A stretch of 63,484 nt of DNA, filler included, from Dimorphilus gyrociliatus (taxonomy: Eukaryota > Animalia > Annelida): NCBI GenBank assembly GCA_904063045.1. It is 3 parts of 3 records of this genome, joined end to end, with 100 filler letters (N's around TTAATTAATTAA, not from the genome) between each part and the next. Parts side by side here need not be neighbours in the genome. Positions count along the whole stretch, not along the records: positions 26,287 to 45,546 come from CAJFCJ010000122.1; 2 more parts are not named here. The stretch is one strand, 5' to 3'. A program made the position numbers and the translations under genes. The notes under the pieces were generated by a model. It worked only from the letters and a program-made list of their open reading frames with translations. It ran no database searches and was not told where the DNA came from. Of this stretch, positions 11,641-57,900 are shown in pieces; the first letter of the stretch is position 1, and every line of letters starts with the position of its first letter.

Positions 11641-11649
11641 AACTAATAA

Positions 11650-16529: not shown

Positions 16530-19500
16530 TTATTTAAAAACCTTATAGGCAAAAAAATCAAGAAATTCAATAAGTGTTATGACAGAAGCTCCCAACACAA
16601 GTCCCAAAAATCCACCAACTTCTGACAGAAAAGATAGAAAAGTGAACTTCTCATGTTGAATCATCTTTTCAGAACTCATCTCTTTGTAAAATAAATCCAC
16701 TTTTGCAAAATTCTTTCTGTTTGCAGAAAAAAGAAACTATAGCAAGAGATGTTTGTTGAATTGAAATCTTACCGAAAAAATTCCCTATTAACAAAAGATT
16801 TCCTATGAAATTCATTCAAAAACGCCTCAAGGTCATTGTACTTGGACAAAAGATCACTAAGTTTCTCAATAAAGGCACTAGAATAGTTAAGTGTATTGGA
16901 TGCTATGGAAGATCCTATGCTTTTAATACACAAATTCCATTGTGTTATATCTTGTAAACTGTCCTTTGAACAAGAGTAACTAATGTTGTATTTCACTCTG
17001 GCCTCATTATATATTAAATAGAAATTTATTATATTTCTGTAAACGATTTGATTATTTTCTATATCGTGTCTGGGAAAAGGCCATTTGAAGTAATAAAAGT
17101 CATTTTGCAAGTCAACAAACAAGTTTTCAATTTCAAGAAATTTTCCAATAAATGTTTTATACTCTATTGGAGTATTTTCACAAAAGCCTATCAAACTTCT
17201 TATGTTGCTTAGTAAACTTTCCAGGAATGAACGATCCGTTAGATTCTGTTTGTTTACCCATGAATTTGGCATTAGGAATGCCTCGAATAGTTGAGTTTTA
17301 TTGAGGGCAAGTTGATGAACTTTACGAATTCTTTCAACATTTCCATTGATATTCTTAATGTAGATTAAGAAGGAATAAGAATATTTCAAAATATTTCTAA
17401 TTTCTATAATTGCTCTTGTAAAAAAGTCCTGTTTTTTATTCAATAGACAGTACGATTGAAAGTAGTCATCATTCATTATTTCCTCTATTCTCAAATATGT
17501 TTGTAGAACAATTTCAATTTTTTCACCAACATCACTATCATTTTGATAAAGAATTTCCAATCTTCCTGAATTTTCCTCAGCAATTAGACTATCGTACAGT
17601 GGAATACATTCATCCATAAATGGTAATCTGGAGTCATTGATTGGCATTTGAAAAACTCTTTCAATTTCTGTCATGTGATAATATTTCAATGTGGATATGG
17701 TTTTTAAATGAGAAAAGAATTTCTTTGCCTCTTTTATAGCTTTATCCCAGAAATTGTAGAAATTTTCCCCTTTTTCCATCAATGGGCTAAAACGAAAATG
17801 ATACATAAACTCATCGCAGACAATCAGTGTTGTATTCATTTTCCTTAGATTTTCAATACAATAATAGAGTTGTCTTCTAATGTCATTTTTCATTACTGGA
17901 ACTAACCCAAATAATTTCTCCTTAAAGTGATTTTTTACAAATGAAAAATGACTAAAAGTTTCCGAAACATATATCATTTCCGATGATCGAAGAGCTTTTT
18001 CAGCTAATATAAAATTGTCTACCATACCTTCACAGTCAAGTATTATTTTGAAAATAATGAGCGACGTAAATGAGTCTTCAACTGTTTCTTTAATAATACC
18101 AAATGCTTCAAAAGTATTTTTAAACTTTTGTAAAAATGGATACATCATTTTTGTAAATGAATTAATGTATTTTTTGTTTAAAGCAATAAGGTTTTCATCA
18201 TTCTTCTCACCAATTTCCAATATTTCCAGATATTTTCTCTTTAACTTATCCATTCTCTTTGAATTGCTTTGTATCAATTTATCAACAGTAAATCCTGATA
18301 TCGCTGAAAATGATAGATTTGGTTCGTAATTAATTTGATGGCATGGAATGCCACAAGAACAGTTGCTCTCGTCACTCTTTACCTTTTCCAAAGATCTTTT
18401 TACACAGCCATAAATTTCTGATAAGGAACACTTTCTTTTGTAGTCAGTTGTATTTTCCTGAAGAATTGCAGTAGCTACGAATGGAATACATTTACATATT
18501 GTTGCTACAGCATTTAATTGGCAATGATCTATGCATTGCGCGTGAGATTTATATTTTGAATTGATGCATTTTCCATATGGTTTTTCAAGACTTTTCGACT
18601 CTGTCCGTTTTATACCAACTAGCGTATGCATTCCAGGAGCTACTGCAAAACCGAGATTGGACATAAGTGGCTTTTTGTAATCATTGTGTATGAAAATTCT
18701 GACACCAGCGTCATTATAGGGTCCAATCATGTGTTGATATTGCTCAATGTTGAATAAGAAAGAAAGACCCTTGTCAATTCCAGCTTCAGTGGAGGTTAGA
18801 GGTTTGAGTGGTTGAATGGAAAGGGGAGAGTTAAATGTGAAGCAGAAACCGAATTCAGTGATTGTTTTTGTAATATATTGAGAGGGACATTGAATACCAT
18901 TCCAAATGCATTCGAATATGAAATCGGATTGTTGATGTCCAGTATAATTGTAAACATATTGAGCACGATCATCCAAATATTTTGGTAAGTATTCATCAAG
19001 TGAAGCATTTCCATATTTACCATTGTTGTAAATAATATTAAAGTATTTATACAGGTCCAATTCAACAGCACTCTTCATTCTTGAAAAATAGACATGTTGG
19101 TTAACTTTATCTGAGAGATTATAAATATAGTTATTGTTCAAAAAATGAATGCCTTAACCGTAACCTTAACCTTTAGATGAGACCCCTTTAGGTAAAAATC
19201 ACTTGCCATTCTTGCTAAACATTTGTCCACCAAAAAAATGTTATCTTGAAATATTTCTGTTGTGAACATTATCTGACAATCCTTTTATTTTTTTATCATA
19301 AAAAATTTAGTCAGAAAATGTAAAAGGGTTTTTGGGTTGATTGACCAGATTATTTATTAAATAACAAAAAGCGCTTTGAGGATAATTGATATTTTAATAT
19401 ATTATAAATAATTGACAAGATTTATAATTGCTAAAGTTAATTTTCTTTTCAGAAAGAAACAGAACAATAGAATAATGTGAATGTGTCAATTACCATTCTG

Positions 19501-29096: not shown

Positions 29097-29254
29097 TCAG
29101 CCAATAGCTGAAACAATACCAAAAACACAGAAAATTCTAATTCAACATTTTGAAACAGGTAGTTGAGGAATTGGGGGTTCTATCATTACATTCTTTAGTG
29201 TTTGGTGTAGTTTTAATAATTCTCTCAAAGGTTTTGTAATTTTTGTAAATTCCT

Positions 29255-30075
29255 TGACAAACCTTCAAAAATAACCACAAAATGCTACTAAACTCAACAG
29301 AGTACTTGCAAATATAGGTAACTTAGCATCTTTAATTTTCTGAATCTTTTCAGGATCAGTTTCAATACCATTTTGTGTAATTCTATAATCAAGAAATTGA
29401 ACTGATTCTTGTAAGAATGCACATTTGCGGGGCCGACAGAAAACGTCCTCAAAGTGAGATTTTTGAAAGCAACATTTCGGATTGAAAAATGGCTAGAACA
29501 AGTAAAATGACTATTGATTTGTAGTTAGGGGAGTTCCATCTAAGGGTTAGGGGTAATTAAGGAGATTAGGGAAAGATAAGGGCTAGGATAGGGTTAGGGT
29601 TAAACTATGCATTTGGGGATGTTTTCTGTTGGATCCGACATTTGCTTAGTTTGATTCTAAAATCTTTTTCTTTGATTCTATCCATTAATTTTTTGTAAAG
29701 CTGTGTAGTGTTCTTCCAATGTTTTGGTAAAAACAATAATATCATCAATATAATTAATACAAAAATCTTCCAATCCATTTATTAGAAAATTTTCCATAAT
29801 ATAGCTGAAGTGTGATGGTGCATTGGCCAAACCAAAAGGCATGCAATTAAATTCAAATAAGCCAAATGGTGTGATAAAAGCAATTTTTTCCTTGTCTTCT
29901 TCCTTGATTGGAATATGGTGAAATGCACTTGTTAAATCCAATATTGAAAAGTATTTGTAGCCTCCTCCAAGCTTATCAAATAAATCTTCCTGATGTGGAA
30001 TTGGATAGCAAATCTTTTTTGATTGTTAGTTAAGTTTTCTGTAATCTACACACATTCTCAATGCTCCCTCCTTTT
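29255..30075 (-). mobile_element. Gypsy RT fragment (close relative of 41470-42060), split by a MITE
   Basis: LDLTSAFHHIPI, FGLANAP, YIDD; high DNA identity to the + strand element. Confidence 0.92.
29429..29636 (-). mobile_element. MULE-derived MITE, copy 3
   Basis: Reverse orientation of the same MITE; TSD cacatttgc/gacatttgc (8/9). Confidence 0.9.
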
Positions 30076-30099
30076 TATGTTTGTGTACATTTTGATTAC

Positions 30100-30524: not shown

Positions 30525-31668
30525 ATGTCTGATATCGAAGGTAAATTGTTAAATTTTTGTTTTGAATTTTGAACTATTATCTTGTTTTTTATTTTTAAAA
30601 ATAGAAGTAAACAATCAACAAAGTGAAGATGATTCTGGTTGCTGTGGAGTAAGTTTTTTTTTCTTATTATTTGCAATATTTTGAATTTTTATAATCAATT
30701 ATACTATTACTTTAAAATGTAGGTCATTCTGAAGATAGTTTCAATATTCCTTATCATCATAAGTTTTCCAATATCAATATGGATGTCTATAAAACTAGTG
30801 CAAGAGTATGAAAGAGCTGTTATATTCCGTTTGGGTAGAGTTTTACCGGGAGCCAGAGGACCTGGTATCTTCTTTGTCATACCCTGCTTGGATAATTTTG
30901 TTAAAATTGATCTCAGAACAATCTCATTCGACATTCCACCTCAAGAGATTTTAACGAAAGATTCTGTAACAATTTCTGTTGATGCTGTTGTTTACTATAA
31001 AGTCTCTAATCCAATGATATCAGTGATAAATGTTGAAGATTGTGCCAGATCGACTCGTCTCCTAGCCCAGACAACTTTAAGAAACATTCTAGGAACAAAG
31101 ACGCTTAGTGGGATATTATCGGAGCGTGAAACAGTTGCCAATAATATGCAAGTACTGTGTTCTTAATAAATTCGAGAAAAAATCCATCATGTTGACACTC
31201 AATTGTATTATTTTGCAGGTTGTGCTTGATGAAGGTTTGTCTAATCTAAAATATTTCATGTTAACCATAAATATTTATTACTTGTAACAAACAGGAACTG
31301 ATCCTTGGGGTGTTAAAGTTGAAAGAGTAGAAATCAAAGATGTTAGTTTACCCCTTCAGTTACAAAGAGCTATGGCGGCTGAGGCAGAAGCTACAAGAGA
31401 AGCTAGAGCTAAAGTTATTGCTGCAGAAGGTGAACAAAACGCTTCAAGAGCACTTAAGGAGGCAGCTGACGTCATTAATGAAGCATCTGGAGCCTTACAA
31501 CTAAGATACCTTCAAACACTAACACAAATATCTGGAGAGAAGAATTCAACTATTATATTCCCCTTACCAATTGGTATGTTATTCAAACTGTTTGTCACCC
31601 TATACAATGCACTAATACAATTTTCATTGTGAACAGAACTTATGGATGCAATGATAAAGAAAAAATGA
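30525..31668 (+). CDS. STOM: Stomatin / band-7 (MEC-2-like) protein, 6 exons
   Basis: [84 protein letters not shown]; all introns GT-AG and in phase. Confidence 0.95.
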
Positions 31669-32229: not shown

Positions 32230-32571
32230 TGAAATATTTGGAGCTTAGATTATTACTATTCTGACATCCAATCATCACTTTACAGTTGCCGAAATGTGTA
32301 GTTCATATTTATCTTTAGTAACAGGATGTTACAAGGTTCAACATTTAGGAAGGTTAATTGAATTATAACTTGGCCACACCCTAGGCAAGTTAATTAAATT
32401 ATAACTTGGCCAAACCTTTATTGGTAATTAAAGATGAGCCTTCAAGCTGACTAATCAGACTTATGTTTGGCCAATGTTATAGCATTTTCTTGCGTAGGTT
32501 TTAAGATGTACATGTATATGTTGCATAAAATAATAGAGTTCAAGCATGTAAAATATAACCAAAGTTGTACA
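32230..32571 (-). repeat. 3' LTR of the minus-strand Gypsy element (solo relative at 56505-56827)
   Basis: Polypurine tract AAAGAAGGGGGAAG (32574-32587, minus) immediately before TGTACAAC; homologous to 56505-56827. Confidence 0.75.
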
Positions 32572-32680
32572 ACTTCCCCCTTCTTTGTGAAGATGAGTCC
32601 CTTCATCTTGATTTAATGAGAATTACAGGTGGTTTCTTCTTCATTAGTTTGATGTTGACTAAAGCTACAACTTTGTTTCA

Positions 32681-35010
32681 TTAGTTTTGGGTTTCAGGAG
32701 AGTTATCTGTGCTCTCACTTGGGGTAGCAATTTCTTCTCTTTGTTTTCTTCTTCCAATAATATAGTTGAAAATGATGATACATACCATTGACACTACAAT
32801 ACTCAAACAAATATTTCGTATGATAACATAAAGTGTTTTCCCAGGTTTATAGTACCAACTATGGAAAAACTGTTTAATTCCAGATAAATTGGGTACAATG
32901 CCATTTTTCTCTGCAACAGTGACCATGTTATCATACCTTGCCTGCTTCTGTTCCAGTGAACTGATAACTTGCTTAATTTTGAGTGCTGGTATGCAATATC
33001 CTTCTTTACCCCATGGTGGAGTAGATCAGCTAATCTGGCAATTTCAATTTTTGGTTCAGAAAGGTGATTGTGGATATGTAACTGCATGGATTTTGCAGAC
33101 ACAGTGTGAAATCTGCATCCTCTTTCTGAATAATACACATACGTTTTGTCTTTCATTGGTTGGTTTCTTATAGGATTTAATGGGTTGTGAGTTGTTTTGT
33201 AGAATAACTTGTTAGACTTACACTCATTATAGGTAATCTCTTCAGGATTGACTTGCTGTAAAACATGAGTAACTGGTTCTACTTGGAAAAGCAGGTTGTT
33301 CATGGTGACAAGTAAAAATTGAGAACATTTGTTATTCTTTTTTATCATGCTTAAGTCACAAACTACTTCTGTTGAGGCTATTGGTGAACATTGTTTAATT
33401 ATAGCTAATTCTCCCATCTGACTACTGTGCATTCCCAACTCATTTGTTAACACTGTGGTCAATTGAGGATCCAAATTTGCTAGTAATGCCATCATTCTGC
33501 TTCTTTGAACAAATTGATTGCAGAGAAGACTTGACAGCTGTTGGGTAAACTTTTTAAATTCTTAAAATTTGAATCAATACCATGTAGTAAGGTAGATGTT
33601 TGGGGCAGCTTCTCTCATTTCCAATGGGAATTTGTGGTATGGGTTTTTACTTATCTTATGTTTCAGTTTTGCTTCCTTCTTCATCTGCTTTTTAGCCATT
33701 CTCATGTGTAGAGTAAAATAAATTCCTTCATAGTAATCTTAAATTCTCTGGCTGGTGGTCCTTTATACCATATGCCCAATGTTGGTAATACCTTCTTTTT
33801 GATTCTTTTCTCACTGTATACATATTTTGAAATCGTGACAGATTGTCTTGTTGCCCTTGTCCAATTGACTGCTTGCAGCATTTCTGGATATAATAGTTAT
33901 CCAGCTCCCAGTAAGATGGACTAATGGGTTGTTGTAGATGATATATCACAACTTCCTTGAGTGTGCCTTTATTTCTCATTAGTTTATACTTTGTGTTTGT
34001 TTCTCTGTACCATTGGTTAAGACTTGGTAAGGGTTGTTTCGCTTGTATAGTATATTTGTTCTTTCACTTTATTGGGATAGTTTAATAGTCGTTTTTTCTT
34101 CATTTTTGCCAATCTTCTGATATTGTAGCAAATTGTATAGGTGTTCCTTGCTTGTTTCCTGTATTAAACTCTGTTCCTCCAGTGGTACTAGTACTTTTGT
34201 TCCAGGACCACCAATTCCATCAATAAACTTATCTTGATAAGGGATGTCCAGAATAGAATACCCTGGACAAGAATAGTGACCAGCAAATTTGATACAACTA
34301 ATTCTGTTGCTAATTTTTATCCATGGTGATTGTTGCCCAAGTGTGTAATTATTCTTGAGGTTCCTAAAGACAATAATTGCCTCTTCTGTCTCACAATAGG
34401 ACTGCCCTGGTAAACAATCTTTCAGGTAGTCCAGATTAGTTGTAATTTTCATATTAGGAGGTTGCCAATATGCTTTGCCAAACTGGATAATTGTGGTGTA
34501 TTCCAGCACCTTGGTTGTTGTTGGCCATGTGTAGGCAGCAGGAAACTGATCTTGGTGGATCCAAGTGTTTCTTTTCACCATTAAAGGTTTTCCTTGAAAA
34601 GATCGTTTGTCTTTTATCATCTGTCTGCATTGATCATGAGTTACTTTGATAACTGAGTTAACAATCCTCCTCTTCTTTGCTCCAAAGAAATAGTAAGTGT
34701 AAAAATTAGTTCTTAGATACACTTGACATTTTACTGCTCTTGTTTCAATTTCTTCCAAGTTCAATTCATAGATATCAGCTGTAATTGTCTTGGTTTCTTG
34801 TGATTCTATATTACAAGTTGGCTCATCTGCTAGATCAAATGCCTGGCTTGGTAGTTGGTTAGAACAAAAGTATAACGGTGGTTTAAATGTTAAGGTAATG
34901 TTTGCACTTGTAACATGGGCACCTTGGTAGGATGGTTTTGGGACTGTTATTGAGTGGATGCAGCCACAGATCACCATTACAGTCATCACTAGTGGAAGCC
35001 ACAACATCTG
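32681..35010 (-). pseudogene. Envelope glycoprotein (class III fusogen-like), frameshifted in the C-terminal half
   Basis: MKQMLWLPLVMTVMVICGCIHS signal; YYFFG..QCRQMIK..YTWP; NLDPQL..GELAIIKQCSPI; TM IIRNICLSIVVSMVCIIIFNYII followed by GRRK. Confidence 0.7.
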
Positions 35011-38000
35011 TTTCATGTTAGCTCTTCCTGTGTTGGCTATAGTTGAATGGTTGAAAATTTTGTGTTGTTGTTCCACTCTGATAGTTATTCCATCTTCTAA
35101 CTCTATATATTGTGGTTCCACTTCTTGTTGGGAATCTAATTGTTCAGAGATGATTTTAGTCTCATCTAAAAATATCACTGACTCATTGTCTGTGTCACTT
35201 GTATTTTCTTTCTCATCTTGGGATGAATCTACCACTATGAGGGACTCATTATTCGAATGGGTTATGTCAATAATTTCACCTTCAATAATTATTGACTCAT
35301 TATCCGAATGGGTTATATCAATAATTTCGCTTTCAATAGTTATTGACTCATTGTCTGAACTAGATATTTCATCTTCTCTATCAGAGATAATGTTTGCCTC
35401 TGAATCTGTATTTTTATCCAGTTCATTATTTGTTTCTGTGTCATCACTTTCAGATGAGCTTGAAGGTTCATTGAGACTGTAATTACTGTCTGTTTTGAAA
35501 GTATTGCTTGTGTCATAACCAGTATCAGAATTAGTAACTTCCATCTCTGAGTCATCACTATCTGAACTTTCTGATGAAGAGTCATGCTGTCCCATCATGG
35601 CTATAGTGACTTTGTTTAGTTGAGGTTGCCTTATTCTTTCAGCCAGGTTCCCTTTCCTTCTATCAAATTTGAGAGAACACTGTTTAGCTTCAAAATTGAG
35701 GTTTGCTCCCACAGTTTGTAGGAAATCACAACCAAGTATTATTGCTATGTCTAGATTTTCCATAACTATAAATTCTTGTTTCATACTTTCTCCAGCAAAT
35801 TGGATATTCAGCTTTACGCTTCCTTTTTGCTTTAAAGCTTTCCCATCAGCTGAAGTTATAATTGGTAAGCCAATTGTTTCTTTATCCATAATTGTAACAT
35901 CCATTAACTTGATTTCTTTTTCAGTAATAAAGGATCTCAATGCTCCTGTGTCACACAAGGCAATGACTTCTTGGCCTTTTTGATTCTTCAAACGGAATTG
36001 GAAGTCATTTCTTCCTTCTACCTGAGAAAGATATTGGAGGTGTGTTATTTCCTTCTCCACAAGGTGAAAGATTGTTGTTGCTTCTTTCCTTGTTTCCAAC
36101 TTATTAGATTCATTGGCTAGTCTTAATCTGCTACCATGTACCAACTTGCATGTATTATCATCCATTTGTATTTCATATATCCACTTTTGATGATTGACTT
36201 TTGTTATTCGGTATGGGCCTAACCATTTTAAAGAAGGGATTTTTGTTATTGCAATTCTTGCAGCATCATTTCTTAAGAATACTTCATCATCAACCTCAAA
36301 ATATTTTGGAAGATTGAGATTTCTATTCTTTCTTTCCCTATATTGTTCTTTTGCCATGATGGATTTACAGAAGGCTGTAGCTCTTAACTGTACCAATTGC
36401 TGCTGGTGATTGAATACAAATAGTACATTTGTTTCAGGAGAGGTAGTATGCATTGTTACATCAATCAGTGTTCTTGTGCTGGTGCCAAAAAGAAGTTCCT
36501 GGGGTGGTAGTCTTGTACTTCCTACAGGTGATTGATTCAAAAATGCTTGAATCAAGGGTAGGTTTGCAACCCAGTTATGCTGATTTTCTTCCACCACTAA
36601 TTTATTGATTTCCTTCCTCACTTCTCTATTTCTTCGTTCAACTAGTCCATTGCTCTGGCTTCTATAAGCTGTTGTTTGGATTTTCTCAATACCTAATACC
36701 TTCATAAACTCTTTAAAAGCTTTACCAACAAAGTTTCTTCCTTGATCTGTCAACATTTGTTTTGGAATTCCAAAAATGGGAAAAAATCTGTTGAAAAGAA
36801 GGTTTGCAATTTCTTTACTGGTTTGCTGTTTGAGTGCATATAAAACTGTGTATCTACTGAAATGATCCACTATCACAAGTATGAATCTGTATGACTTAAC
36901 CATGGGTAAGGGTCCCATTATATCCATGGCCACCAACTCCATTGGTGATGCAGGGTGAAAGGTTTCTACCAAAGGGTATACTCTACTCCTACCATTCATT
37001 TGTTCACACAAAGTGCAATCCTTTATTGAATTCTCAATCATAATCTTTAATTTTGGGTGCCAAAAGGTCTTTGTAATTATTTGTAATGTCATTCTGGGTC
37101 CATGGTGATTGTGAATTTTATTTTTATGGAATTTAGGGAGCAGAGTTAGCATCAAATGGTCAGGTAAAACCAGAATGTTTCTTTCTTCAAGGATAATCCA
37201 GATCATTTCCTTGTGAACAAACATCTCCATTATGAAAGGTGTAAAAGTTCCAAAATAAGGAATAGGTAGCTGACCATCCAGTGTTAAATATTCTTTAATT
37301 GATTTTAAATTCACATCTTTTTCTTGCTCTGACTGTAAGTCAACAGAAGACAAATCAATTTTCTCTTCACTGTTATCACTGGTAGCTACAAAAGTTAACT
37401 CTGGTGTATGTTCATACTGTTCCATTTTAACTGAAATAGAGGGAGAATTCTCCTCTTTGATTCTTCCATGAATTAGCTCTTCAAATGTTACTTTCCTTGG
37501 GGGTGTATATTCTTCTAATCTTGTTAATGCATCTGCTCTATTTTTTCGTCCTGTCACATAGTTAATTGTAAATTTTAAATCCATTAAAGCCATGACCCAT
37601 TTTGCTGTGCTGACATTCAATTTGTTTTGCTTAAATGTTTGTACTAGACTCTGATGGTCAGTATATAAAAAGAATGGCTTGTCTTGAAGGTAATGTAAAA
37701 ATTTCTTTACAACCCAGTAAACACCAAATGCTTCCTTTTGATAGGCTGCATATTTCATTTGATTATTGTTAAATTGTTTTGAAGCATAGGCAATGGGTTT
37801 CATTGTTTTCTTCCCATTCTCATCTACATAAACTTGTTCAAGAACTCCTCCTACAGCTACATTCGATGCATCTGTTGTTAAGTGAAAATCTTTAGCAAAA
37901 TCAGGTAGTTGTAATACAGGAGGGTTAACTACTGCATCTCTCAACTTGAAAAATGATTGCTTGGCTTCCTCAGTCCATTGCAATTTATCCTTTTTCCCAT

Positions 38001-38224
38001 GTAGTTTCATTAACATATACAGAGGTTTAGCTACTCTTGCAAAATCTTGCATAAATTTTCTGTAATAGCCACAAAACGCAACAAAGCTTAGTAGTGAATT
38101 TGCAAACACTGGTGGCTGTAAATTATATAATTTATCTGTCTTGGTGTACACATTTAGGCAGTTTGTAGGTACTAAACACATAAGCTCGTAACCAGGCTCA
38201 CAAACTCACACAATACACCCAAAT

Positions 38225-38641
38225 TGTTACATTTCATTCATCAATGGAAAGCAATATTGAAAGAGTATTATAGAGTACTTTACACACCTAAAACTACAAC
38301 ATACACTATTTAAACTAAGTTGTAAAAGTATTTTACAACTTAGATGTTAACCCTAATTATTATACACATCATATTTAATGAATATTAATTATATGTTCCA
38401 CTATTCTATTTATATTTGGAGCTTTTAGATTATTGTCACTTTTCAACAGTATTGTATGCACAATACTATATTGAATGATTAAGTTTAATACTTTTATCCT
38501 ACCAGTCCTTTACACAGAAACATATTATCTTACACAAACAATTATTATTAATAATTTGTTGTATATTAAAACGGCATCAAGTTGACCTTTTCCTATTTTT
38601 GTGTTTTGGAATCAATCCAACTTCTATTAATAATTGTTACA
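38225..38641. repeat. Putative LTR between the two divergent Gypsy copies
   Basis: Bounded by TGTTACA at both ends; attgttacatctta..tctgacc matches the LTR/leader junction at about 61700 (minus); no second copy to confirm. Confidence 0.35.
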
Positions 38642-38989
38642 TCTTAGGCAACTTTCTGACCTACTAAAATAGGGAGCAAAAGTTCTCCAAGATAAAGAAA
38701 AAGTAACAAACATGGAAGTATATTTGAACTTTCCCTTTATCCAAATTGTTACATTTGTTTGTGTGAATATTTTTATCCGTGAACTGTGAACTATTGGAAA
38801 AGTATATAAACCCTACGAATTTAACAGTAGTCAGTTCAGTTTTCTAACCATCAGCTGGTTGTTCAAACTTGCTTGTTTAGAACTAGAAACTCATTTACTC
38901 AAATACATATTCTTTGAATGAAATACTGGTGTTTGTTGGTTAATTTTTACTGGAATTACATTTATTAAGACTACTTGTGGACGAACTTG

Positions 38990-41900
38990 AAAGGTTCTAT
39001 TTGGACCAGTACTTTGGCACATTGGTAAATGATTGGAGTGGACAAATTTGATAGTGACGAGCTAGGACTTCCTACAATTACAATACAACAAAGTACAAAT
39101 ATGGCGCAGTCGACAGCCCACAACACTTCTACAATGAATGATATTTTGGTTTTTGAAAATGACAAGACCAGAGGCAAAGAAATAGATGAGTATCTTACTA
39201 AAATAAATGAATTAATGTTGAGAATTAAAAGTAGTGGAGCCAAGGTTGATGGTAATAGTTTTTTGAAATACCATTTGATGACTGGGGCAGCTATAATTCC
39301 TGAAGGTATGGAGAACCCTTATCCTACTCAACCAAAATTCAATAATGATGGCATTCAAGATAATGCTTTGGAAAAGACAATTGCAAGTCTTCTAATTGAT
39401 GCTAATGAGAAACCTAATACTACTTTGCTAAGACCTTTTTCTGGTAGCAAAGATACTTGGGCCTTTAAGAGGAACTTTCAAACTGCTTGTGAATTAAACC
39501 TTTGGGATACAGAGGAAAAGAGAATTCGAATGTTGAGAAAATACACTACTGGAAGAGCCAGAGATGTAATTGAAAGCTTACCCTCCAGGGCAACTGAAAA
39601 TGAAATTTGGGATGCATTGGATGAAGAATTTAATCCAGATCCTATGGCTTATAAAAAAGATATTGATAGATTGAGACAGTTCAATGATGAAACTGTTCAA
39701 AGTTTTGTTAGAAGAAGTAAAGAACTTGTAGAGAAATTCCTACCATTCAAACCTACTGAGATGGTATGTGTTACTGAGAGAGTTAGAGAACTGCAACTCC
39801 TTAGTATATTCAGGAATGGTCTAAAAGGAAAAATTGTGAACCATGTGGAAAAAGATGGAAAAATTAGCTCAGTAATCCAATATATTAAATTGGCAAAAAG
39901 AGCAGAAATTTACTTTAATAATGCAAGGAGAGAAGATGAAAATGAATTCAAGCAATTCAAAAAAAGATTTGATAACAATAATAGTTATGCGAATGATAAT
40001 GACCATAAATTTACACCTTTTTCTCAAAATAGGACCCATCAATACCAAAGATCTGGAAATGAGAGAGGTACCTTCAACAGATTAATTCATGCTGAACCTG
40101 ATCAACCTAATGAAAGAGAAACTTCCAAGGGTACAATGGCAATATTTAATCTTAAAGAGGAGAAAGTTGCACATTTCAAGTGCACATCTCAAATAAAAGG
40201 AAGAGATGATTTCCAATTTCGTTTAAAGAATCATAATGGAAGAGAAGTGATTGCATTATGTGACACAGGAGCACTCATGTCATTTATCACTGAAAAAGAA
40301 ATTAAATTATTGGACCAAAAATGGGTAAAGAGAGAAACCACTTCATTACCAATAATAACTTCAGCTGATGGAAATGCTTTGAAAACTAAAGGTAAAGCAA
40401 AACTTAACATACAATTTGCTGGAAGAATAATGGAACAAGAATTCTTTATAATGGAAAAATTGGATATGGCAATAATTTTGGGATGTGACTTCTTAAGAAA
40501 GTCTGGAGCAATAATCAACTTTGCAATTAAACAAGTTTCACTCCCATTCTTTATAAGAAAAGGAGAACCTGTTAAAACTTTTCTACAAAAAAGACAAAAG
40601 GATCAAACACACAAAAGAAACCAAAGGAAACCTAACAAACTAACTGTAGGAATGATTGGACAATATGCTCATGAACATGATGACCCATCTGAAGTGTCAG
40701 ATAGTGTGGATTCAGATATGGATATTACTGAGCCAGATACTGGATATGATACAAGTAATACTTATGGCTCAAATGAAACTTTGAGTTCTTCTGAAAATTA
40801 TGATACAGAGATGAGTAATGAACCAGAGCATAACTCAGACTCAGATTTGGATATTGTTAATGGTATAAAGTCATCTGAAGAAGAAAATGGCAACATAACA
40901 GATTCAGACAATGACTCAGTTATTATCATTAACTCATCTGCTGAAGAAACTGAAACTGAATCTGAAGAATTAATTACAGAAATGGAAATGAAAACACAAT
41001 ACATAGAATTAAAGGATGGAATGACTATCAAAGTTGAAAAAGAACAAATGAAAACTCCAGCAACTCCTGAGATAGAAGAATTACTGCTGGAAAGTGTTGA
41101 GTTTGGACATATGTCTAATCAAAATATACACCACATTAATTCAACTACAGTAGAAATTGACAACTATTTACATGTGTCCAAAAATAATCCTGACAAAGTC
41201 AGGGAAGAATTGAAAGAAATCATCAAGAATTATGAAGACATTATTGCTACAAATCAAAATGACATTGGCTCACCAGATGTTCCACCAATGGCAATTGAAT
41301 TATTGGAAGATGTGAAACCTTTTAAACAAAGACCATACAGATTACCACCCAACAAACAACAGGAATGTAGGGAACAACTTAATGGATTATTAGCAAATGG
41401 TTTGATTAGAGCAAGCAAAAGCCAATGGGCTTCACCAATTGTTTTTGTGAAAAAGAAAGAAGGAACATTAAGAATGTGTGTAGATTACAGAAAACTTAAC
41501 AAGCATTCAAAAAAGAATTGTTATCCAATCCCACACCAAGAAGATTTATTTGACAAACTTGGAGGAGGACATAAATACTTTTCCATCTTGGATTTGACAA
41601 GTGCATTTCACCACATCCCTATCAAGGAAGAAGACAAAGAAAAAACTGCTTTCATAACACCATTTGGTCTATTTGAATTTAATCGAATGCCTTTTGGTTT
41701 AGCAAATGCACCCTCACACTTCAGCTATATTATGGCAAATTTTGTCATAAATGGATTGGAAAATTTCTGTATTAACTATATGGATGATATTATTGTTTTT
41801 ACCAAAACATTGGAGGAGCACTACACAAGTCTACAGAAACTGATGGAAAGAATCAAAGAAAAGGACTTCAGAATCAAGTTAAGCAAATGTGCATTTCTAC

Positions 41901-44900
41901 AAGAATCAGTACAATTTCTTGGTCATAGAATTACACAGAATGGTATTGAAACTGATCCAGAAAAGATTCAAAAGATAAAAGATGCTGAATTACCAATGTT
42001 TGCAAATACTTTACTAAGTTTTGTTGCATTTTGTGGTTATTATAGACGATTTATCAAGGACTTTGCAAAAATTACAAAACCATTGAGAGAATTATTAAAA
42101 CTACATCAGAAGACTGAAAGACTAAAATGGACTACAGAAGCAGAGAAAGCGTATCAGACACTAAAGAAATCAATGACAGAACCACCAATACTTCAACTAC
42201 CTGATTTTAGTAAACCATTCTATCTAACAACAGATGCCTCCAATTATGCAGTTGGTGCAGTTTTAGAACAAGAATGGGAAGAAGATGGAAAGAAAATAAG
42301 AAAGCCAATTTCTTTTGCTTCAAAACTCCTAATCAATACACAACTAAGGTATGCAGCTTATCAAAAAGAAGCTTTTGCAGTCTATTGGGCAGTACAAAAA
42401 TTCTCCCATTACTTGCAGTATAAGAAATTTTTTCTTTACACTGATCACCAAAATTTGGTACAAACATTTGTACAAAACAAATTAAATTCAAGTACTGTTA
42501 AATGGGTTATGGCACTTATGGATATGGACTTTGAAATAATTTACATACCTGGAAGAACCAACAGAGCAGACTGGATATCCAGAATTGGAGAAACTGATGA
42601 AGTTATTGATTTCCGAAATTTACTAAAGGAAAGACTAATGAAGAAAAACAAAATGGCAATACAATTCCACAATTAGCAGAAAGAAAGGATATGCTTAAAT
42701 GCTTTTATATTGATACAGAAGATTTAGAAGACTTAGCTGATTGTTTGGATGAATTTTTAGACAATAATGATGGTTATGATGAAGAAGCAGATGACAAAAA
42801 ATTACAGGTCATGAAATTAAAAATAAACCTGTTGAGATAAACTTCTACACTGAACAAGTTTTGGATGACACGCTAATGAAAATTGTAGAAAAATTGGAAG
42901 GAGCAAATATTGATGTTGAAATGTTCAAGGAATACAAAAATTTTATTGAACATATGTTTGTCAAAGATGATTTAGTATGGTATCTGAATGGTTGTCAACC
43001 ATTACTGGTAATTCCACTACTAACTTTAACAAACTACTGAACCAAATACATCAACATCAAATATTTGAACACTATGGTGTAGACATAACAATTCATACTT
43101 TGGAACAAGCTTTCTGGCATCCACAACTTAAGAAAACAATTAAAGACCATATAAAGAATTGCAAATTCTGTGAACAATTAAGAGCACCTGGAAACAAACA
43201 TCTATTGGTTGAAACACCCCATCCAACTCTACCAATGCAAAGAATTGCAATGGACATAATGGGACCACTAACAGGACATGAATCTTACAAATACATACTT
43301 GTCATTATAGATCACATGTCAAGATTTACAAACTATTTCCATTAAAAACTCAGACAGCTGAAGAAATATCAAAACACTTGTTTTTTAACTACTTTCCAAT
43401 ATTTGGTATTCCAGAAGAAATTCTCACAGACCAAGGACGGAATTTTCTGGGGGAAATATTTACAGAGATGGTTACATCAATGGGAATAAGGAAAATAAAA
43501 ACAACAGCATTCCATAGCCAAAGTAATGGAATGGTAGAAAGAAAGAATTTGGAAATTCGCAGAGCACTACATAAACATGTAGTTATGGAACAATTAACAG
43601 ATTGGACAAGACAATTACCAATAATTCAAACATGCTTAAACCAAATTCCAGTGGGAAGCACAGGCAAAACTCCACATGAAATATTATTTGGATTGAAGAA
43701 TAGGAATGTCTTAGATTTGTTAATGGAAGTTCCAAGATTAGAACCAACAACAAAATTTCTATTTGATAGAAAGCATGAAATGGAAGAAATAAGAGCTACT
43801 GCATTGTGCAAATCTGTCATGAAAAGAAGGCATATAGAGATAGAGTAAACAAACTATCACAAGAAAACCCCAACTTACCAAATTGGTGAATGGGTACACA
43901 TAAAAAATGAACACATTGGTCAAGGAATGAATAGGATAAATACAAGCAAATGGAGTGGACATACATTGTAACTGCTACTGATACTACAAAATGTCTTTAT
44001 GAATTGGAAATATTAAATGGCAAAAGAAAATTCTACCATGCTAGTAGACTAAGATTGGCTAACAAACAACCAACTAGAGTTAACACATCAAGGTAGAGAA
44101 ACAAGAAAGGAAAGTTGGAACACTTCCTATAAGAGGATCCATTGTTTACACTCTGCTAGCGCTATGCTTATTAAACTTGGTTCAGGGAAATGTATCAATA
44201 ACAAAAGCAAACATAACTGTGAGAATGCTTCTTCAGTACAATTCTGTCAAGGGCAACAAGTACATCAGTCATTTGATCTGGCTGATGAACCAATTTGCAC
44301 ATTCAAAACTAAACAAATGACCAAAATAATGGCAAATATTTATGAAATTAAAGCTGATAATTTGGCAATACAAGCTGTTAAGTGTTTGGTAAAGAGAAGA
44401 ATCAACTTTTACACTCATTACTTCTTTGGAGCAAAGAAACACAGAGTTGAAAAACAAACACTTACCTTAAGTGACAAACAATGCAGAAAAATGTTATTGT
44501 CAAAAAAGACCTTAAATGGACAAAAACTCATTGAAAAAGGAAACCTTCTAATGTACAATGAAAACAAAGGATCAAACTACAAATGGCCAAGAACAACAGT
44601 GGTTGAAGAATTTACAACAATTCTCCAAATTGGCAAAGCTTATTGGCACCCAAGTCAGGATAAGATAACAACCAACTTGGAATATTTAGAGGACTGTTCT
44701 ATCAAACATAAATTTTGTAGAACTCTGGATTCCATTATTATTTTCAATCCTCAGAAAGGACAAAATCTCCTTGGTCATGAATCCCATGGAAAGCAGTATC
44801 CTACAATGTAGAGTGCATTAAGCTTGGAGGATATTTTTCATGTCCCAACTATGCAATAATGGATTTACCTTATCAAGATAGATATATCAAAGGATATGGT

Positions 44901-45540
44901 GGTCCTGGAACAAGAATTTTAGTACCCAGAAGGAATACGACTTATTAAGAACTGATCTTACAAATTCAAATTATGCTGATAACAGAATGATGGCAGATAT
45001 CAAATATAAAATCATTTCAAACAAAGAAGTTGCAAGATTGCAGAATTATGATGGAAAGATATCAACTTTGAGAAAAGCAAATAATACAGAAATACAAAAT
45101 ATACTAACTATAATGATTGGTATAGAGATGGTGACAAGACTTATCATATGCTGATCAAAAATCATGTAACACCATGGTTAGGACCTGGATGGTCAGAGAA
45201 ATAATCTCACCTGATATATGGGATATTACAACAAATACATACTCAAAATGTTGAAAACAACCAAAATGGAACCTGCTAGAATGGCAAAAGCAGAAGATTT
45301 TGAACTCAACAAGAAGAAATTAGTTTCAATCCTTACAAGACTGGACACTTGGTACCAAAGTCCAAAAGATAAACAATTTCAAACACATCAAGCAAATGGA
45401 AAATTTACACTTTTGCAAAGAACACCAAAGAAGCATGAATGGAGGAGAAGAGTATCAGAAAGCATACAGATGCCAAAATTTCACAAAATAGACATAGCAG
45501 ATGCTATTCGACATCTGCTTTATTAAATAACATTGATAAA
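38990..45540 (+). mobile_element. Env-bearing Gypsy element: gag-PR-acidic spacer-RT-RNaseH (ORF 39029-42676), disrupted IN (about 42700-44070), disrupted env (44140-45500); cut by the contig end
   Basis: Gag LRQFNDETVQSF; CDTGA; LRMCVDYRKLN, YMDD, TTDASN; IN fragments IAMDIMGP, TDQGRNF, GMVERKN; env HYFFGAK..YKWP homologous to the minus copy. Confidence 0.95.
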
Positions 45541-45546
45541 AATTTC

Positions 45547-47599: not shown

Positions 47600-49130
47600 A
47601 CATACCAAACCGAAAATTAAAGCGAAGACTCAAACTTTGAGCAAAGATTATAGATGTATGTGTGCCGAAAATCATGTTTGGCCTATTGTCCGGTTTACAT
47701 CAATTTTGATGTGAAAGAAAAACAACTGATGGTTGAAAGGTTCTACAGGTGTCAGAACTGTCTATGAGGCGGACATACTAGTGAAAAATGTCCGTCAAAA
47801 TTCAATTGCAAGAAGTGCAATCAAGCTCATCACACAACATTATATCACACAGGGGCAACAACCCTAAAAACGATATCTACTATCAACTATAATCAATTAA
47901 AGGAAAAGCAAGAAAGAATGACCGTATATGAGACAACAGTACAAATTCCAGCGTCTGGTAAATCAACCAATCACAAAATTACCGCTCTTATCAACACTGG
48001 AGTGGTAGTGTCCCTGATTAGCAGACAATGTTTAGAAACTACATCGTACAATTCAGTAGCTGAAAATTGTTGCTGAATTGATATATCTTATGTCAATAAT
48101 GAGCTTCAAACAATAGGTTAAAGTCATATTCCCTAAATTGGGGAGTAAATACAACGCCGATGCCCACGTGGTGGATTCACTATCTACCATACCAGAACAA
48201 CCTCTGATAAAAATCAACTCAAAGTACACTGAACCACCACTTCCAAGTGGCAGAATAGACTTACTTATAGGACATAGTCTAAGACAGGATAGATCACATT
48301 CACATCTCGGTCCTATACAACTGTATAGAACTAAGGACTATAACTTCATGCAATATGCACTCGGATGGTTCAAAACTATCCCCCTTATCATGCGACGTCC
48401 CATTCGGACTGTACCGTAAATATGATCTATGCAGAGACACAGCTGAATGTCCACCATATTGATCAAGTAATTGATCTACCTGATGTGGACGACCTTGGTG
48501 CAGATCCATCCAGCTCTATTAATGACACTAGAGCAAGTGACATTATGGCAAACTATGTTCAGACATCTAAAACTTATTGGACCTTCCCTCTCCCTTTCAA
48601 ACACAACCCGAATGTACTAACCAACAACTACATTATTGCTAGAAATCGATTTCAGGCCATTCGTCAGAAACCCATTTATAAGGATTATAATGACGAATAC
48701 AAGTCAGGAATCCAATCTTTGTTTGACAATAGCTATGCTCGACGAGTGTCGCACAAGGAAGTTAACTTTTATTTACCTTATCATGGTGTACCTAATCCAA
48801 ACAAGAAAACAATAAGAATAGTCTTTGATGGTACCGCGAAATATAAAGGTTTTTCCCTGAACGATACACTCATCACGAGCTCTTCCCTACTATGTAACCA
48901 GGCCCATCTCCTTACTTTGTGGCGAACCCAACCCCATTTTATCTTAGCTGACATTAAGCAGATGTTTATGAATATATGTGTAGACATCAAACATCAACTC
49001 TATTTCAGTTTCCTGTACGAAGACCCAAAAAAGGAAAACAATATTTTATTTGCCGTATATATCAAAACACTCTTTGACTGCTTTCCATCATCAAATTGTG
49101 CCTTTGTACCTGAAGGGGGCTGTCTATAAT
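47600..49130 (+). mobile_element. BEL/Pao retrotransposon remnant (gag knuckles, protease, RT)
   Basis: CQNCL*GGHTSEKCPSKFNCKKCNQAHHTTL; ALINTG; FYLPYHGV..IRIVFDG..SLND..ADIKQMF. Confidence 0.9.
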
Positions 49131-52892: not shown

Positions 52893-55559
52893 GAATATGG
52901 TTGAAAGGGTCCGCAATTGAAAGGGTCCGCAGTTGAAAAGGTCCGCAAGCTGATTGAAAGGGTCTGCAAGTCAATTGAAAGGGTCCGCAACTCAAATTAA
53001 ATTGTCTGCATATTGATTGAAAGACTTCCTAACAATTTTTTTTATAATTCTGCATCAAATTAGAAAAAAGAAAATCATAACATTGGTATGTTTTGCACCA
53101 GTTTTCACAATAAGAGTGTTTTGCTAGTTTGATTGATTGCAGGGAAAATCTCAGGTATGCAAACTTTTCCATAATTTTCTCTTGCATCTTTAGTTGTTTA
53201 AATATTATAGAAGCAAATAAAGCAGTATTATTACATTTTCTTTCAGAGATTTCTTATCAGAGTTTTTTCTCTACAAAATAATATTAGATTTCAAAAATGA
53301 TGCCACAATGCTTTTCTTGCAAAGAGACAATAAACAAGCAAAAAAAGAGAAAATGCTCTCTTTGTATGCATACTAATCATTGGATTTGTCTACAAGGTAT
53401 GTTAAAAATCATTTTTAATCAAATTTATATGTATCATATTATTTCTTGCAGACAATCTGTGTGCACTTTGTGTTTCAATTCAAAATTGCCAAGCAAAGAT
53501 TGTGTTAAGATGTGACAAAAAGGAATTTGAAGCTAAACAAATAGTTTCTGACAATGAAATGATTGATTCTCTTATCACAAGTGATGAAATAGCTGATGAA
53601 AACCATACTCAAGAAGATTTGGAAGACCACAAGATTGGCACATATTTTTATACTGATGTACCTATTGCGAAAGATATTACAGTTGTTTCACAAAGAGAAG
53701 GAAGTGTCATTGAAGAAATTGCTGCAAAAGTACAATCAAATGAGGACACAAACATGAATGTGTGAACTTTAAGTGAAAACATGATAAATTAATAAATTAA
53801 TATACATTTCTATTTTTAACAGGTTGATGAAAGTTCATTTGAAGATGTAGAAGAGAGTATTTTGCTGACTGATGGATCTTTTGAAATATTTGAAAATGGA
53901 AGTCAAAAAGGAAAACCTCTGCTTCTTCATAATGGATTTTCATATACAGTTAAACAAACAAGAAAATGTAATCGAATTTGGAAATGTAGTGGCAAAAATA
54001 AAAAAGGAAAATGTCCTGGAAGTGTTAATGAAAATGGTGGTAACTTTACATTAGGCTCTAAACCTCACAATCATTCATCAAAGAAAAATCTAAAGCAAAT
54101 TACAAAAATGAAAGTGCAAATAAAAAAAAGAGCAGAATCAGAAAAAAAGACATCTGCATTGAGAATTGTGGAAGATGCCTATATTCAACAAGATATTGTG
54201 TCAAATTTTCCAAAAATTACAAATTGCAAGCAGGTTGTTAATTACCACAGAAGAAAAAACCAACCAAAAGAACCAGAATCCTTGACATTTTTACTTAATC
54301 ACTCCTTTATTGCTGATAGTTTCCTTCAATGTGATTTATTACATCAAAATGAAAGAGTATTAATTTTTGCAACAGCAAAACAATTAAAACTATTATCATC
54401 ATCAAAGATTTGGTATATGGATGGCACCTTTAAAGTTGTCAATCAACCATTCAAGCAAATGTTTTCAATCCATAGTTTTTTGAAAAAAGATGGAGAAATA
54501 AAACAAGTTCCATTGCTTTTTGCTCTGTTTTCTTCCAAAAAGAGAGCAGCATACTCACTTTTGTTCAAAGTATGTTTTCAAATGATATTGAATACATGTA
54601 AGATTAACCTTTTCCTTTTTCATCAGAATGTAAAAGAATTGATTGGTGATTATTCACCCAAAACCATAAGAATGGATTTTGAGAAGGCACTTTGGAAAGC
54701 AGTCTCAAAATTGTTTCCTGCAGCTGAATCAAAAGGTTGTTTATTCCATTGGAGCCAAGCAGTCTTCAGAAAAATTCAAGTGATATTGAAAATTAATAAT
54801 AAAATGTATAATATTAATTTTTTTGTTTGTTTCAAAGGAACTAGGATATGCATCAGATTACAAAAATCACACAGGTCAATATGCTGAAATGAGAAATTTA
54901 ATGGCTTTGCCATTTCTACCTCCAAATATCATTCCACAGGAATTTAACAAAATAAAAGAGTACTTTAATAGCATTAGGAAACTAGGTGATTTGATTAATT
55001 ATATAGAAAACACATGGATAGATACTTATATATGGCCACCTTCTTCATGGTCTGTTTTTGATGTTGCTATAAGAACCAACAATGATGTGGAAGGTTTTCA
55101 TAACAGATTGAATTTAAATGTTGGAAACAGCAAATCATTTTATAATCTTCTAGATGAGTTTAAAAGAGAAGCTGATCTTGTGCCAGTAATTCAAAAAATG
55201 CTATCTGAAAAAAAATTTGAAGTGTTATCAAAAAAAGATTTATGTAAATCTGCAAAAGAAGATTTTTGATATATGGGAAAATTTCAAAATTGGGCAGATA
55301 ACATGTTCAGAAGTCTTAGATATTTGTTCCAAGTTATACTTTTCAAATTGACATAAATTTAATCAACAAATTTTCATTTACTTTATCAGTTTGAAACAAA
55401 ATAAATTATTACAAATTAACCATTCATTATCTTTTTCATTTCTTGTCTTTTTTTATGATTTCATAAGAAAAAAACATTTTCAAGTCTTTTTACTTTTCTT
55501 GCAGACCCTTTCAATCAGCTTGCGGACCTTTTCAACTGCAGACCCTTTCAACCGGTCCC
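52893..55559 (+). mobile_element. Mutator-like (MULE) DNA transposon 2
   Basis: Exact 9-bp TSD ctatttata (52884-52892, 55560-55568); TIRs of tandem ttgaaagggtccgca units. Confidence 0.95.
53297..55350 (+). pseudogene. PHD-FLYWCH-MULE transposase, intron-containing, late frameshift in an A-run near 55210
   Basis: CFSC..CSLCMHTNHWICLQ/DNLCALC; GSQKGKPLLLHNGFSY..WKC; YMDGTF, MDFE, GCLFHW, NNDVEGFHNR. Confidence 0.88.
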
Positions 55560-56504: not shown

Positions 56505-56827
56505 TACATTCATTCATCACTTTACATTCATATCTATCTTTAGTAACAGGATTTTACGAGATCCAACAATTATATGGACTAATTAAATATTAATTAAACC
56601 AGACCTTAGGAAAACCTATTAATTATAGCTTGGTCACGTCTAAAGAGGGTTATTTAAATTATAGCTTTGCCATGCCTTATCATTAAAAGTTGAACCTCTA
56701 CGATGACTAATTGAAATATAACTGGATTGAACCTTACTGTGTTTTCCTGCGTAGGTTAGATAGTCAGATTGTTCTAAGTTGTGTATAGTACTACAGTTTA
56801 AGCATAAAATATAATGAAAGTTGTACA
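56505..56827 (-). repeat. Solo LTR related to the env-Gypsy 3' LTR
   Basis: Shares catcactttaca, tatctttagtaacaggat, aattata.cttgg, gcgtaggtt and the terminal aaagttgtaca with 32270-32571. Confidence 0.75.
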
Positions 56828-57900
56828 ATACCATATAACACAATTGAATGGAATAACAAACATGTAAAAACTATAAAAAGTGGAAAAGTTATCCTAAGCC
56901 TACACCCAAACAAAGTAGAAATACACTTTAAAAATAATTTAACAACACAGAAAATTGTTGTTATTAGAGAAGAGAATGAACTTGTTGGCCCATTCCTTAA
57001 TTTTTAAATTGAAAATATCAACAAAAATATTAAGAATTATGAAGGAATTATTGGAAATGTTGGGAATAGAATATTCACTTCTATCCCATCAATAGAAGAT
57101 GATAGTATAGCTATATTTAAAATGGATAAAAAGTTCATTCAAGTAAAAAACAAGATTAGATATGGAAGGAGTTGTTGGTAAATTGAATTCAAAGATTTAA
57201 TATCTAAAGAAGAAATATTCAAATTTATATTTCAAACTTAAAGTTTATACTGAATAGCTTTAATCCAATCTACCAAACCAAACACTAGCTAAAAAGTAAA
57301 AATGTGTTATGTAGCACTTAGGTAGCTTTGAAACTACTCTTTCAATTTCTTTAAACACAGCACAAAGCATACGAAAGAAAATTTATAAATAGTTTCTTTG
57401 TTTTTTATTGCTTAGGATACTTCTTTATTATTTCTATAATAGGTACGGTTTCCTTAAAATATGCTAGTCATTTCCTGTTGTGAACATTACATATAGTGAA
57501 CCCAGTCATTTAGATCAGGCCTTAAGTTATTAAGCTGAGTCATCCAAATCATATGACAATGAATCAGACGGTGATTTTTAGATATCTTTTGTCTTATAGT
57601 CACGTGATACACACTATTTTATAAATAAAACAAGATTTTAAATATTGAAAAAGCATAAATCTAAAATAATTTTTAACTTCCCAATCAAAAAGATACGTAT
57701 CATTCAAAATGTCAAAATATCAAAATGTGTTCCATATTTTACGATGTCTCAATGAGTTAGCAATTTTTTTTTCTTCTATCGTCAAAGTAATTTCGTTTTT
57801 TAAAAGAATTTTTTCTATTGGATAGCTCGATATGGAAGAAAAGTAAAAAATAATTGAATTCTGATTGGAATTTTTTATATCTTGACTCTCCCTTTTTTAG

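What the first reader, a model, noticed from the sequence alone, without database searches (positions are those of the whole stretch)
34069..38181. Protease located between integrase and envelope in one uninterrupted ORF
Gypsy order is gag-PR-RT-RH-IN. The minus copy reads RH-IN-(ETRKE)-PR(DTGA..ILGCDFL)-acidic spacer-signal peptide-env without a stop for 1370 aa. The PR+spacer block (about 36095-35060) is homologous to, but well diverged from, the canonical PR+spacer of the plus copy (about 40115-41045), so it is not a simple assembly duplication, and its catalytic motifs are retained. The plus copy also has RETRKE after IN, followed directly by a signal-less env start, and RETSK at its gag-PR junction. 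Two readings fit: the family natively has a second protease that releases env from a single polyprotein (lost by deletion in the plus copy), or template switching at the RETxK microhomology created it. Either would be an unusual retroelement design.
Basis: partly seen in the sequence, partly recalled or inferred. Interest (0 to 1): 0.85.

Follow-up and report, generated by a model that had tools for sequence, protein, structure and literature searches.

The report
Retroelement protease between integrase and envelope
A virus-like jumping gene in a small invertebrate carries a protease with intact catalytic motifs between its integrase and envelope genes, where none normally sits; it was likely picked up from a related element and may serve to cut the enzymes free from the membrane-bound envelope precursor.

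Summary
One 1370-aa frame reads RNase H, integrase, aspartic protease (PR2), acidic spacer, signal peptide and a class III (herpes gB-type) envelope. Contigs from 5 of 7 runs (two studies) bridge both junctions, so this is not an assembly error. PR2 is 65-70% identical to the neighbouring copy's canonical protease, more than the two elements' divergence predicts, so it was likely gained by recombination, not inherited. A second member about 85% identical also has a spacer before env with an RT motif upstream, so the layout likely is not unique to this copy. The plus copy's 'RETRKE' is off-frame and that copy does have a signal peptide. Env release needs only host signal peptidase. This copy lacks gag and RT, and other runs show it transcribed antisense and spliced. 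Selection on PR2 in its new place is not shown. An unrelated chromovirus-type polyprotein (P0156) also carries a second protease beside a gB-type env. Four paper searches found no such design, and the scan's earlier notes hold no match. [quoted passage not shown]

The parts
37516..38115 (-). RT connection + RNase H; the element is cut off upstream of here (no gag, PR1 or RT core)
   Evidence: Pfam RT_RNaseH; homology to the plus copy starts here
36100..37164 (-). Integrase: zinc finger, core, C-terminal SH3-like module ending RLRLAN
35671..36096 (-). PR2: retropepsin-type aspartic protease, catalytic Asp at aa 744, DTGA and ILGCDFL
35068..35670 (-). Acidic Ser/Asp/Glu-rich spacer, homologous to the PR1-RT spacer of the plus copy
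34951..35016 (-). Predicted env signal peptide with in-frame Met
   Evidence: sequence; hydropathy; no dedicated predictor was run
34069..34950 (-). Env ectodomain, N-terminal part (class III, HSV gB-type fold), in frame with IN and PR2
32680..34068 (-). Rest of env with predicted transmembrane segment; broken by frameshifts in the window
32290..32586 (-). Polypurine tract and 3' LTR (starts TG at 32571; outer end approximate); similar to a solo copy at 56527-56828
39029..42676 (+). Neighbouring related element: PBS TGGCGCAGTCG at 39102, gag-PR1 (40118-40543)-spacer-RT-RNase H in one ORF
42971..45546 (+). Integrase, signal peptide and env of the plus copy, frameshifted, no protease between them, ends at an assembly gap
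35865..35924 (+). 60-nt GT..AG intron-like skip on the strand antisense to the element, inside PR2
33545..35795 (+). 2251-nt GT..AG intron-like skip, antisense
33187..33245 (+). 59-nt GT..AG intron-like skip, antisense

Best explanation
This is the 3' half of an envelope-carrying Ty3/gypsy element that has a protease-plus-spacer block in frame between integrase and env, likely gained by recombination from a related family and likely shared by a small lineage of copies. Shown: domain order, open frame, real junctions, intact motifs, gB-type env. Inferred origin: a template switch joined the integrase end to the gag/PR boundary of a plus-like donor; the spacer end was joined to env either by a second switch or because the donor was already a PR-spacer-env deletion form. 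Inferred function: pol and env share one frame, so the internal signal peptide would take env into the ER. Host signal peptidase would free env and leave the pol part tethered to the membrane by the signal stub. PR2, on the cytosolic side, would dimerise there and cut at its own flanks, which it brought with it, releasing integrase and the rest of pol. This copy itself cannot move alone and is read antisense.
For: Junctions bridged by contigs in 5 of 7 runs from 2 studies. PR2 against PR1 is 0.70 identical while RNase H is 0.65 and integrase 0.55. Among 861 pairs of 42 canonical library polyproteins, the 95 pairs with integrase 0.45-0.70 reach at most 0.45 in PR. A plus-like integrase ends without PR (P0008). 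A member about 85% identical has signal-env plus spacer, and its loose end reads the RT motif VDYRKLN upstream of the spacer (motif in 18 of 126,392 window 30-mers); its spacer length change is a multiple of three (record 4). A PR fragment named from the annelid Dimorphilus gyrociliatus groups with PR2 at 90/88 support. dN/dS between PR2 and PR1 is 0.19. An unrelated element keeps a second protease next to a gB-type env in one 3129-aa frame, in two copies 98.9% identical.
Against: No full-length copy was seen, so PR1 and the PR of the second member are unseen. dN/dS 0.19 may have accrued while the block was still a PR1 in its donor. An open frame is weak evidence of selection: chance of no stop at 7.5% neutral change is 0.05 for PR+spacer and 0.30 for the PR core. 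Only 3 of 18 listed differences of the second member, in signal, linker and spacer, are at third positions; that list is partial. No other species with IN-PR-env was found among the 150 listed hits or in three word-based protein searches and three contig scans. The RT-to-spacer junction rests on 30 loose letters of one contig form. The baseline has only 1 pair at RNase H 0.60-0.75, its pairs are not independent, and PR exceeded RNase H in 46 of 861. Activity and cleavage sites are untested.
Confidence: 0.5

Rival explanations
1. Unselected passenger: a recombination product that happened to be in frame, was copied a few times or sat in one locus, and never needed PR2.
For: This copy is 5'-truncated and transcribed antisense. 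The open frame is not very unlikely under neutrality. No homologous layout in other species.
Against: A diverged member shares the spacer-env layout with an in-frame length change. Catalytic motifs and 343 codons are intact. An independent lineage has kept a second protease that is only distantly like its first.
Confidence: 0.28
2. Relocated single protease: the lineage lost PR1 and reads gag-RT-RNase H-IN-PR-env, with PR2 doing all the processing.
For: Nothing seen here shows a PR1 for this lineage. It would explain intact motifs and avoid the cost of two protease halves in one chain (premature self-activation; recalled from retroviral work, not read here).
Against: No direct evidence of PR1 loss; all 48 complete pol hits classed PR-RT-RH-IN keep the usual order; P0156 keeps both proteases.
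Confidence: 0.15
3. One reading: two proteases are ancestral to both copies, the plus copy deleted PR2, and PR2 frees env.
For: The plus copy's pre-env linker has IKVEK, as does its PR1 spacer end, which could be a remnant.
Against: PR2 and PR1 are too alike to predate the split of the two elements. P0008 has a similar short tail with a stop and no PR. Env has its own signal peptide.
Confidence: 0.05
4. Assembly chimera.
For: The window has indel-type differences from other runs and two gaps. No long reads were available.
Against: Single contigs of other runs cross both junctions, for example X5 33659-36885. The block is only 70% identical to PR1.
Confidence: 0.02

Closest known systems
HSV/gB-type 'ancient errantiviruses' (env-carrying Ty3/gypsy), especially Annelida_Polychaeta_Dgyr_errantivirus_1 (Chary and Hayashi, PMC13524379)
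   Same: LTR, RNase H then integrase then env; class III gB-type env. The listed element has the same PBS as the plus copy and a fused GAG-POL; nearest named proteins come from the same annelid.
   Different: The paper's main text names protease once, in the canonical pol position. The orders it reports are GAG-POL-ENV, GAG-ENV-POL and ENV-GAG-POL, and it did not search for others. The listed element has a chromodomain, which Pfam did not find here. Its sequence is on GitHub and could not be seen, so whether it has PR2 is open.
Atlas virus and related nematode Belpaoviridae with one Gag-Pol-Env polyprotein (PMC9094657)
   Same: Pol and env in one uninterrupted frame (passages).
   Different: BEL/Pao, phlebovirus-like class II env; no second protease in the passages seen.
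P0156/P0027, unnamed ENA chromovirus-type polyprotein found here
   Same: One frame with pol, a gB-type env of the same profile, and a second aspartic protease on the predicted cytosolic side of env.
   Different: Its second protease lies after the env transmembrane segment and before another hydrophobic segment; it has a chromodomain; its two proteases are only distantly alike. An independent origin is likely.
Bdelloid LTR retrotransposons with extra enzymatic ORFs (PMC5408684)
   Same: Extra enzyme modules downstream of pol (passages).
   Different: GDSL esterase or DEDDy exonuclease in place of env, as separate ORF3; not a second retropepsin.

Membership tests
Env-carrying Ty3/gypsy (errantivirus, operational sense) | Integrase downstream of RT/RNase H | tested here: met
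Env-carrying Ty3/gypsy (errantivirus, operational sense) | LTR with polypurine tract and PBS | tested here: inconclusive
   3' LTR and tract present in the minus copy; PBS seen only in the plus copy
Env-carrying Ty3/gypsy (errantivirus, operational sense) | F-type or HSV/gB-type env after pol | tested here: met
   Foldseek best hits are herpes gB, E 6e-7, TM-score about 0.3 on a partial ectodomain; profile hits rhabdovirus glycoproteins at E 0.01-0.02; homologues hit Rhabdo_glycop_FD and Monjiviricetes_fusion
Env-carrying Ty3/gypsy (errantivirus, operational sense) | Gag and RT present, intact three-gene element | tested here: not met
   The minus copy is cut at the RT connection; env is broken in the window. 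It is a fragment of such an element.
Env-carrying Ty3/gypsy (errantivirus, operational sense) | Single protease between gag and RT | tested here: not met
   A protease lies after integrase; PR1 of this lineage cannot be seen
Env-carrying Ty3/gypsy (errantivirus, operational sense) | RT phylogeny within Ty3/gypsy | not tested
   No RT in this copy; no RT tree was built for the plus copy
Retropepsin-type aspartic protease | D-T/S-G motif and hydrophobic-G-x-D motif at the expected spacing | tested here: met
   the profile matches ASPRV1, Ddi1, Ty3 and retroviral proteases; PR2 alone found no PDB chain at E 0.01
Retropepsin-type aspartic protease | Homodimer and catalytic activity | not tested
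   No complex prediction was obtained; activity needs the bench

The most novel reading that the evidence does not exclude
Envelope-carrying LTR retroelements that make pol and a gB-type env from one frame have more than once evolved a second, env-adjacent aspartic protease, before env in this annelid-type lineage and after env in an unrelated chromovirus, as a dedicated means of processing the membrane-bound polyprotein: a two-protease design not described for Ortervirales.
Probability: 0.35. Interest if true: 0.82.

Novelty: new variant of a known kind. Interest (0 to 1): 0.6.

Why it matters
The order PR-RT-RNase H-IN defines Ty3/gypsy pol, and one protease per genome is the rule because the enzyme works as a dimer whose timing controls particle maturation (established knowledge, recalled). 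A kept protease between integrase and env, with an independent case behind env, would show that elements fusing pol to env need, or tolerate, a separate processing step at the membrane. It would also expose a class of elements that surveys requiring pol and env to lie close together can miss: the PR+spacer block is about 1030 nt and the largest survey allowed gaps of up to 1000 nt outside insects, though PR homology might bridge that gap.

Tried and rejected
No whole genome is held, so copies could not be counted. Word-based protein searches found nothing; since one search missed P0003, P0004 and P0007, these blanks are weak. Contig scans found nothing. Single-sequence fold of env failed (pLDDT 32); the alignment fold reached 68. 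The Atlas gave no result. No complex prediction of the PR2 dimer was obtained. Contig depth was rejected as a copy-number measure: ratios differ widely between runs and X1-X4 look RNA-derived. I first read the 60-nt skip in PR2 as an inactivating deletion and rejected that: it and two other skips have GT..AG ends and pyrimidine tracts on the + strand (about 0.5% each by chance). I first read IKVEK in the plus copy as a remnant of a deleted block; P0008 weakens this. P0109 and P0039 have a protease after integrase but carry a second gag and are tandem units. The protease tree did not resolve PR1 against PR2 (22 rows, only 20 library proteases used). X6 covered almost nothing; X7 gave only short pieces with C>T and G>A changes. 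ARAGORN found no tRNA.
Full report
Observation. The frame 34069-38205 on the minus strand has 1378 codons without a stop. Pfam places RNase H at aa 69-200, the integrase zinc finger at 340-396, the core at 412-507 and a retropepsin at 735-838. An acidic spacer, a hydrophobic signal-like stretch (aa 1056-1077) and a cysteine-rich ectodomain follow. The protease block aligns to the canonical protease and spacer of the head-to-head plus copy: 65% aa and 70% nt over 142 codons, spacer 49%. The catalytic Asp and the Gly of the second motif are invariant in 26 aligned proteases, and the profile matches ASPRV1, Ddi1, Ty3 and retroviral proteases. Homology to the plus copy starts at about 38115, so the copy lacks gag, PR1 and the RT core. 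Env is broken after about 300 aa in the window. A polypurine tract and LTR close the element at 32571.

In the plus copy the letters read as RETRKE lie in neither the integrase frame nor the frame of the env N-terminus. A signal-like stretch is present in another frame. A plus-like integrase from an unnamed record, P0008 (56-64% to the plus copy, 35% to the minus copy), ends with a stop about 20 residues after RLRLA, so the plus lineage seems to lack the block natively. The ETxK motif travels with the protease and is also seen in P0007.

Are the junctions real? All 7 runs offered were laid. Contigs of X1, X2, X3, X4 and X5 bridge the integrase-protease junction and the spacer-env junction; X5 does so in one 3230-nt contig with 13 differences and 5 gaps. 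X6 and X7 gave no bridging piece. These five runs come from two studies, one may be the source of the assembly, and all are short-read contigs. X1-X4 skip 60 nt inside PR2. This skip and two others inside the element have GT..AG ends with pyrimidine tracts on the + strand, about 0.5% each by chance; the other 7 of 10 joints checked do not. I read them as introns of an antisense transcript and these runs as RNA-derived (inference; the tool only guesses their kind). Depth therefore says nothing on copy number. X1, X2 and X5 also differ from the window by seven small indels in the 3' env region, so some breaks in env may be errors of the window; this was left open.

One copy or a lineage? X2, X3 and X4 hold a second member about 85% identical (44 differences in 285 nt, 26 in 208 nt) that covers signal, env start and spacer, with a net spacer length change of 99 nt. 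Its loose end in X4 reads the RT motif VDYRKLN upstream of the spacer. That motif occurs in 18 of 126,392 window 30-mers. In a canonical element RT follows the spacer, so RT before a spacer that leads into env points to the same layout in a diverged copy; its protease was not seen, and the reading rests on 30 letters. P0004, named from Dimorphilus gyrociliatus, is a protease fragment 68% identical to PR2 and 63% to PR1 and groups with PR2 at 90/88; its context is unknown. Among the 150 listed hits of the full HMMER search none has IN-PR-env.

Origin. In an alignment-based count the window pair has PR 0.70, RNase H 0.65 and integrase 0.55. Of 157 stored proteins, 42 have one of each domain in canonical order; among their 861 pairs, the 95 with integrase identity 0.45-0.70 reach at most 0.45 in PR, and the largest excess of PR over integrase is 0.12 against 0.15 here. 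The baseline is thin at high RNase H identity and pairs are not independent. Still, the block looks younger than the split of the two elements, which favours capture from a plus-like family over an ancestral duplication. Synonymous divergence is near saturation in all domains with overlapping intervals, so it cannot say whether env came with the block.

Selection. dN/dS between PR2 and PR1 is 0.19, but this may have built up while the block was a PR1 in its donor. The chance of staying stop-free at 7.5% neutral change is 0.05 for the block and 0.30 for the protease core; 3 of 18 listed differences of the second member are at third positions, in poorly constrained regions and from a partial list. 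Selection in the new position is therefore plausible, not shown.

Envelope. Homologues hit Rhabdo_glycop_FD and Monjiviricetes_fusion, the profile hits rhabdovirus glycoproteins weakly, and the model (pLDDT 68) matches herpes gB. This is the HSV/gB type of Chary and Hayashi (PMC13524379; I read results parts 1-4 of 5, methods sections 14 and 18, passages and supplement rows). Their supplement lists Dgyr_errantivirus_1 with 7 copies, the same PBS as the plus copy and about 8045 nt between the LTRs. From window coordinates I estimate about 7400 nt for a one-protease and 8440 nt for a two-protease element, so length does not decide. Its sequence could not be seen.

Independent case. P0156 (3129 aa, with P0027 98.9% identical) has gag, PR, RT, RNase H, integrase and chromodomain, then a signal-like stretch, a region matching the env profile (E 4e-7; hhalign probability 81%), a transmembrane segment, a second DTGA protease and another hydrophobic segment. 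Its two proteases are only distantly alike and the second is identical in both copies. Its DNA was not seen, so that it is one genomic frame rests on the protein record.

Mechanism (inferred). With pol and env in one frame, the internal signal would send env into the ER and signal peptidase would free it, leaving pol tied to the membrane by the signal stub. PR2 lies on the cytosolic side and brings its own flanking sites, so it would be placed to cut integrase free. Env could also start at its own methionine on a shorter RNA, in which case PR2 would matter only for the long product. Single Gag-Pol-Env frames are known from Atlas virus (PMC9094657, passages). A possible cost, early self-activation by two protease halves in one chain, is recalled; one search gave only a listing.

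Novelty. Searches for a second, duplicated or post-integrase protease in LTR retrotransposons found no description (one search listed 9 papers, of which I read passages of PMC5408684; one search concerned single polyproteins). The library lacks most subscription papers and Repbase reports. The scan's earlier notes hold no match by place or sequence; one note describes another module fused after integrase in a gB-type element (untested). [quoted passage not shown]

Noticed in passing
window 32340-38650, + strand: Three GT..AG skips in other runs imply a long spliced transcript antisense to the env-carrying element, just downstream of a + strand stomatin-like gene (30723-31632, named from its sequence, recalled); resembles a piRNA-precursor layout. 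Run types are only guessed by the tool.
   Followed up: partly
P0156 (3129 aa) and P0027: Unrelated chromovirus-type single frame: gag, PR1, RT, RNase H, IN, chromodomain, signal, gB-type env, transmembrane segment, second protease, another hydrophobic segment.
   Followed up: partly
window 39102-39113: PBS of the plus copy equals that listed for Dgyr_errantivirus_1 (7 copies) and overlaps an in-frame ATG.
   Followed up: partly
window 40100-45500: The exact plus copy has far lower contig depth than the minus copy in X1, X2 and X5; other runs diverge from the window at about 38144 and 38653. It may be a polymorphic insertion or simply little transcribed.
   Followed up: no
window 29184-30076, - strand: Third fragment, RT only, about 87% identical to the plus copy.
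   Followed up: no
window 58900-60852, - strand: Intronless 650-aa frame with chitin-binding CBM_14, TSP1 and C1q domains.
   Followed up: no
window 16769-19153, - strand: 794-aa frame with an amiloride-sensitive channel domain; part of it is repeated inverted at 11646-12188 at 97%.
   Followed up: no
window 53820-54887 and 48344-49129, + strand: FLYWCH plus MULE transposase; a decayed RT-like stretch with no Pfam hit, possibly BEL/Pao (recalled resemblance).
   Followed up: no
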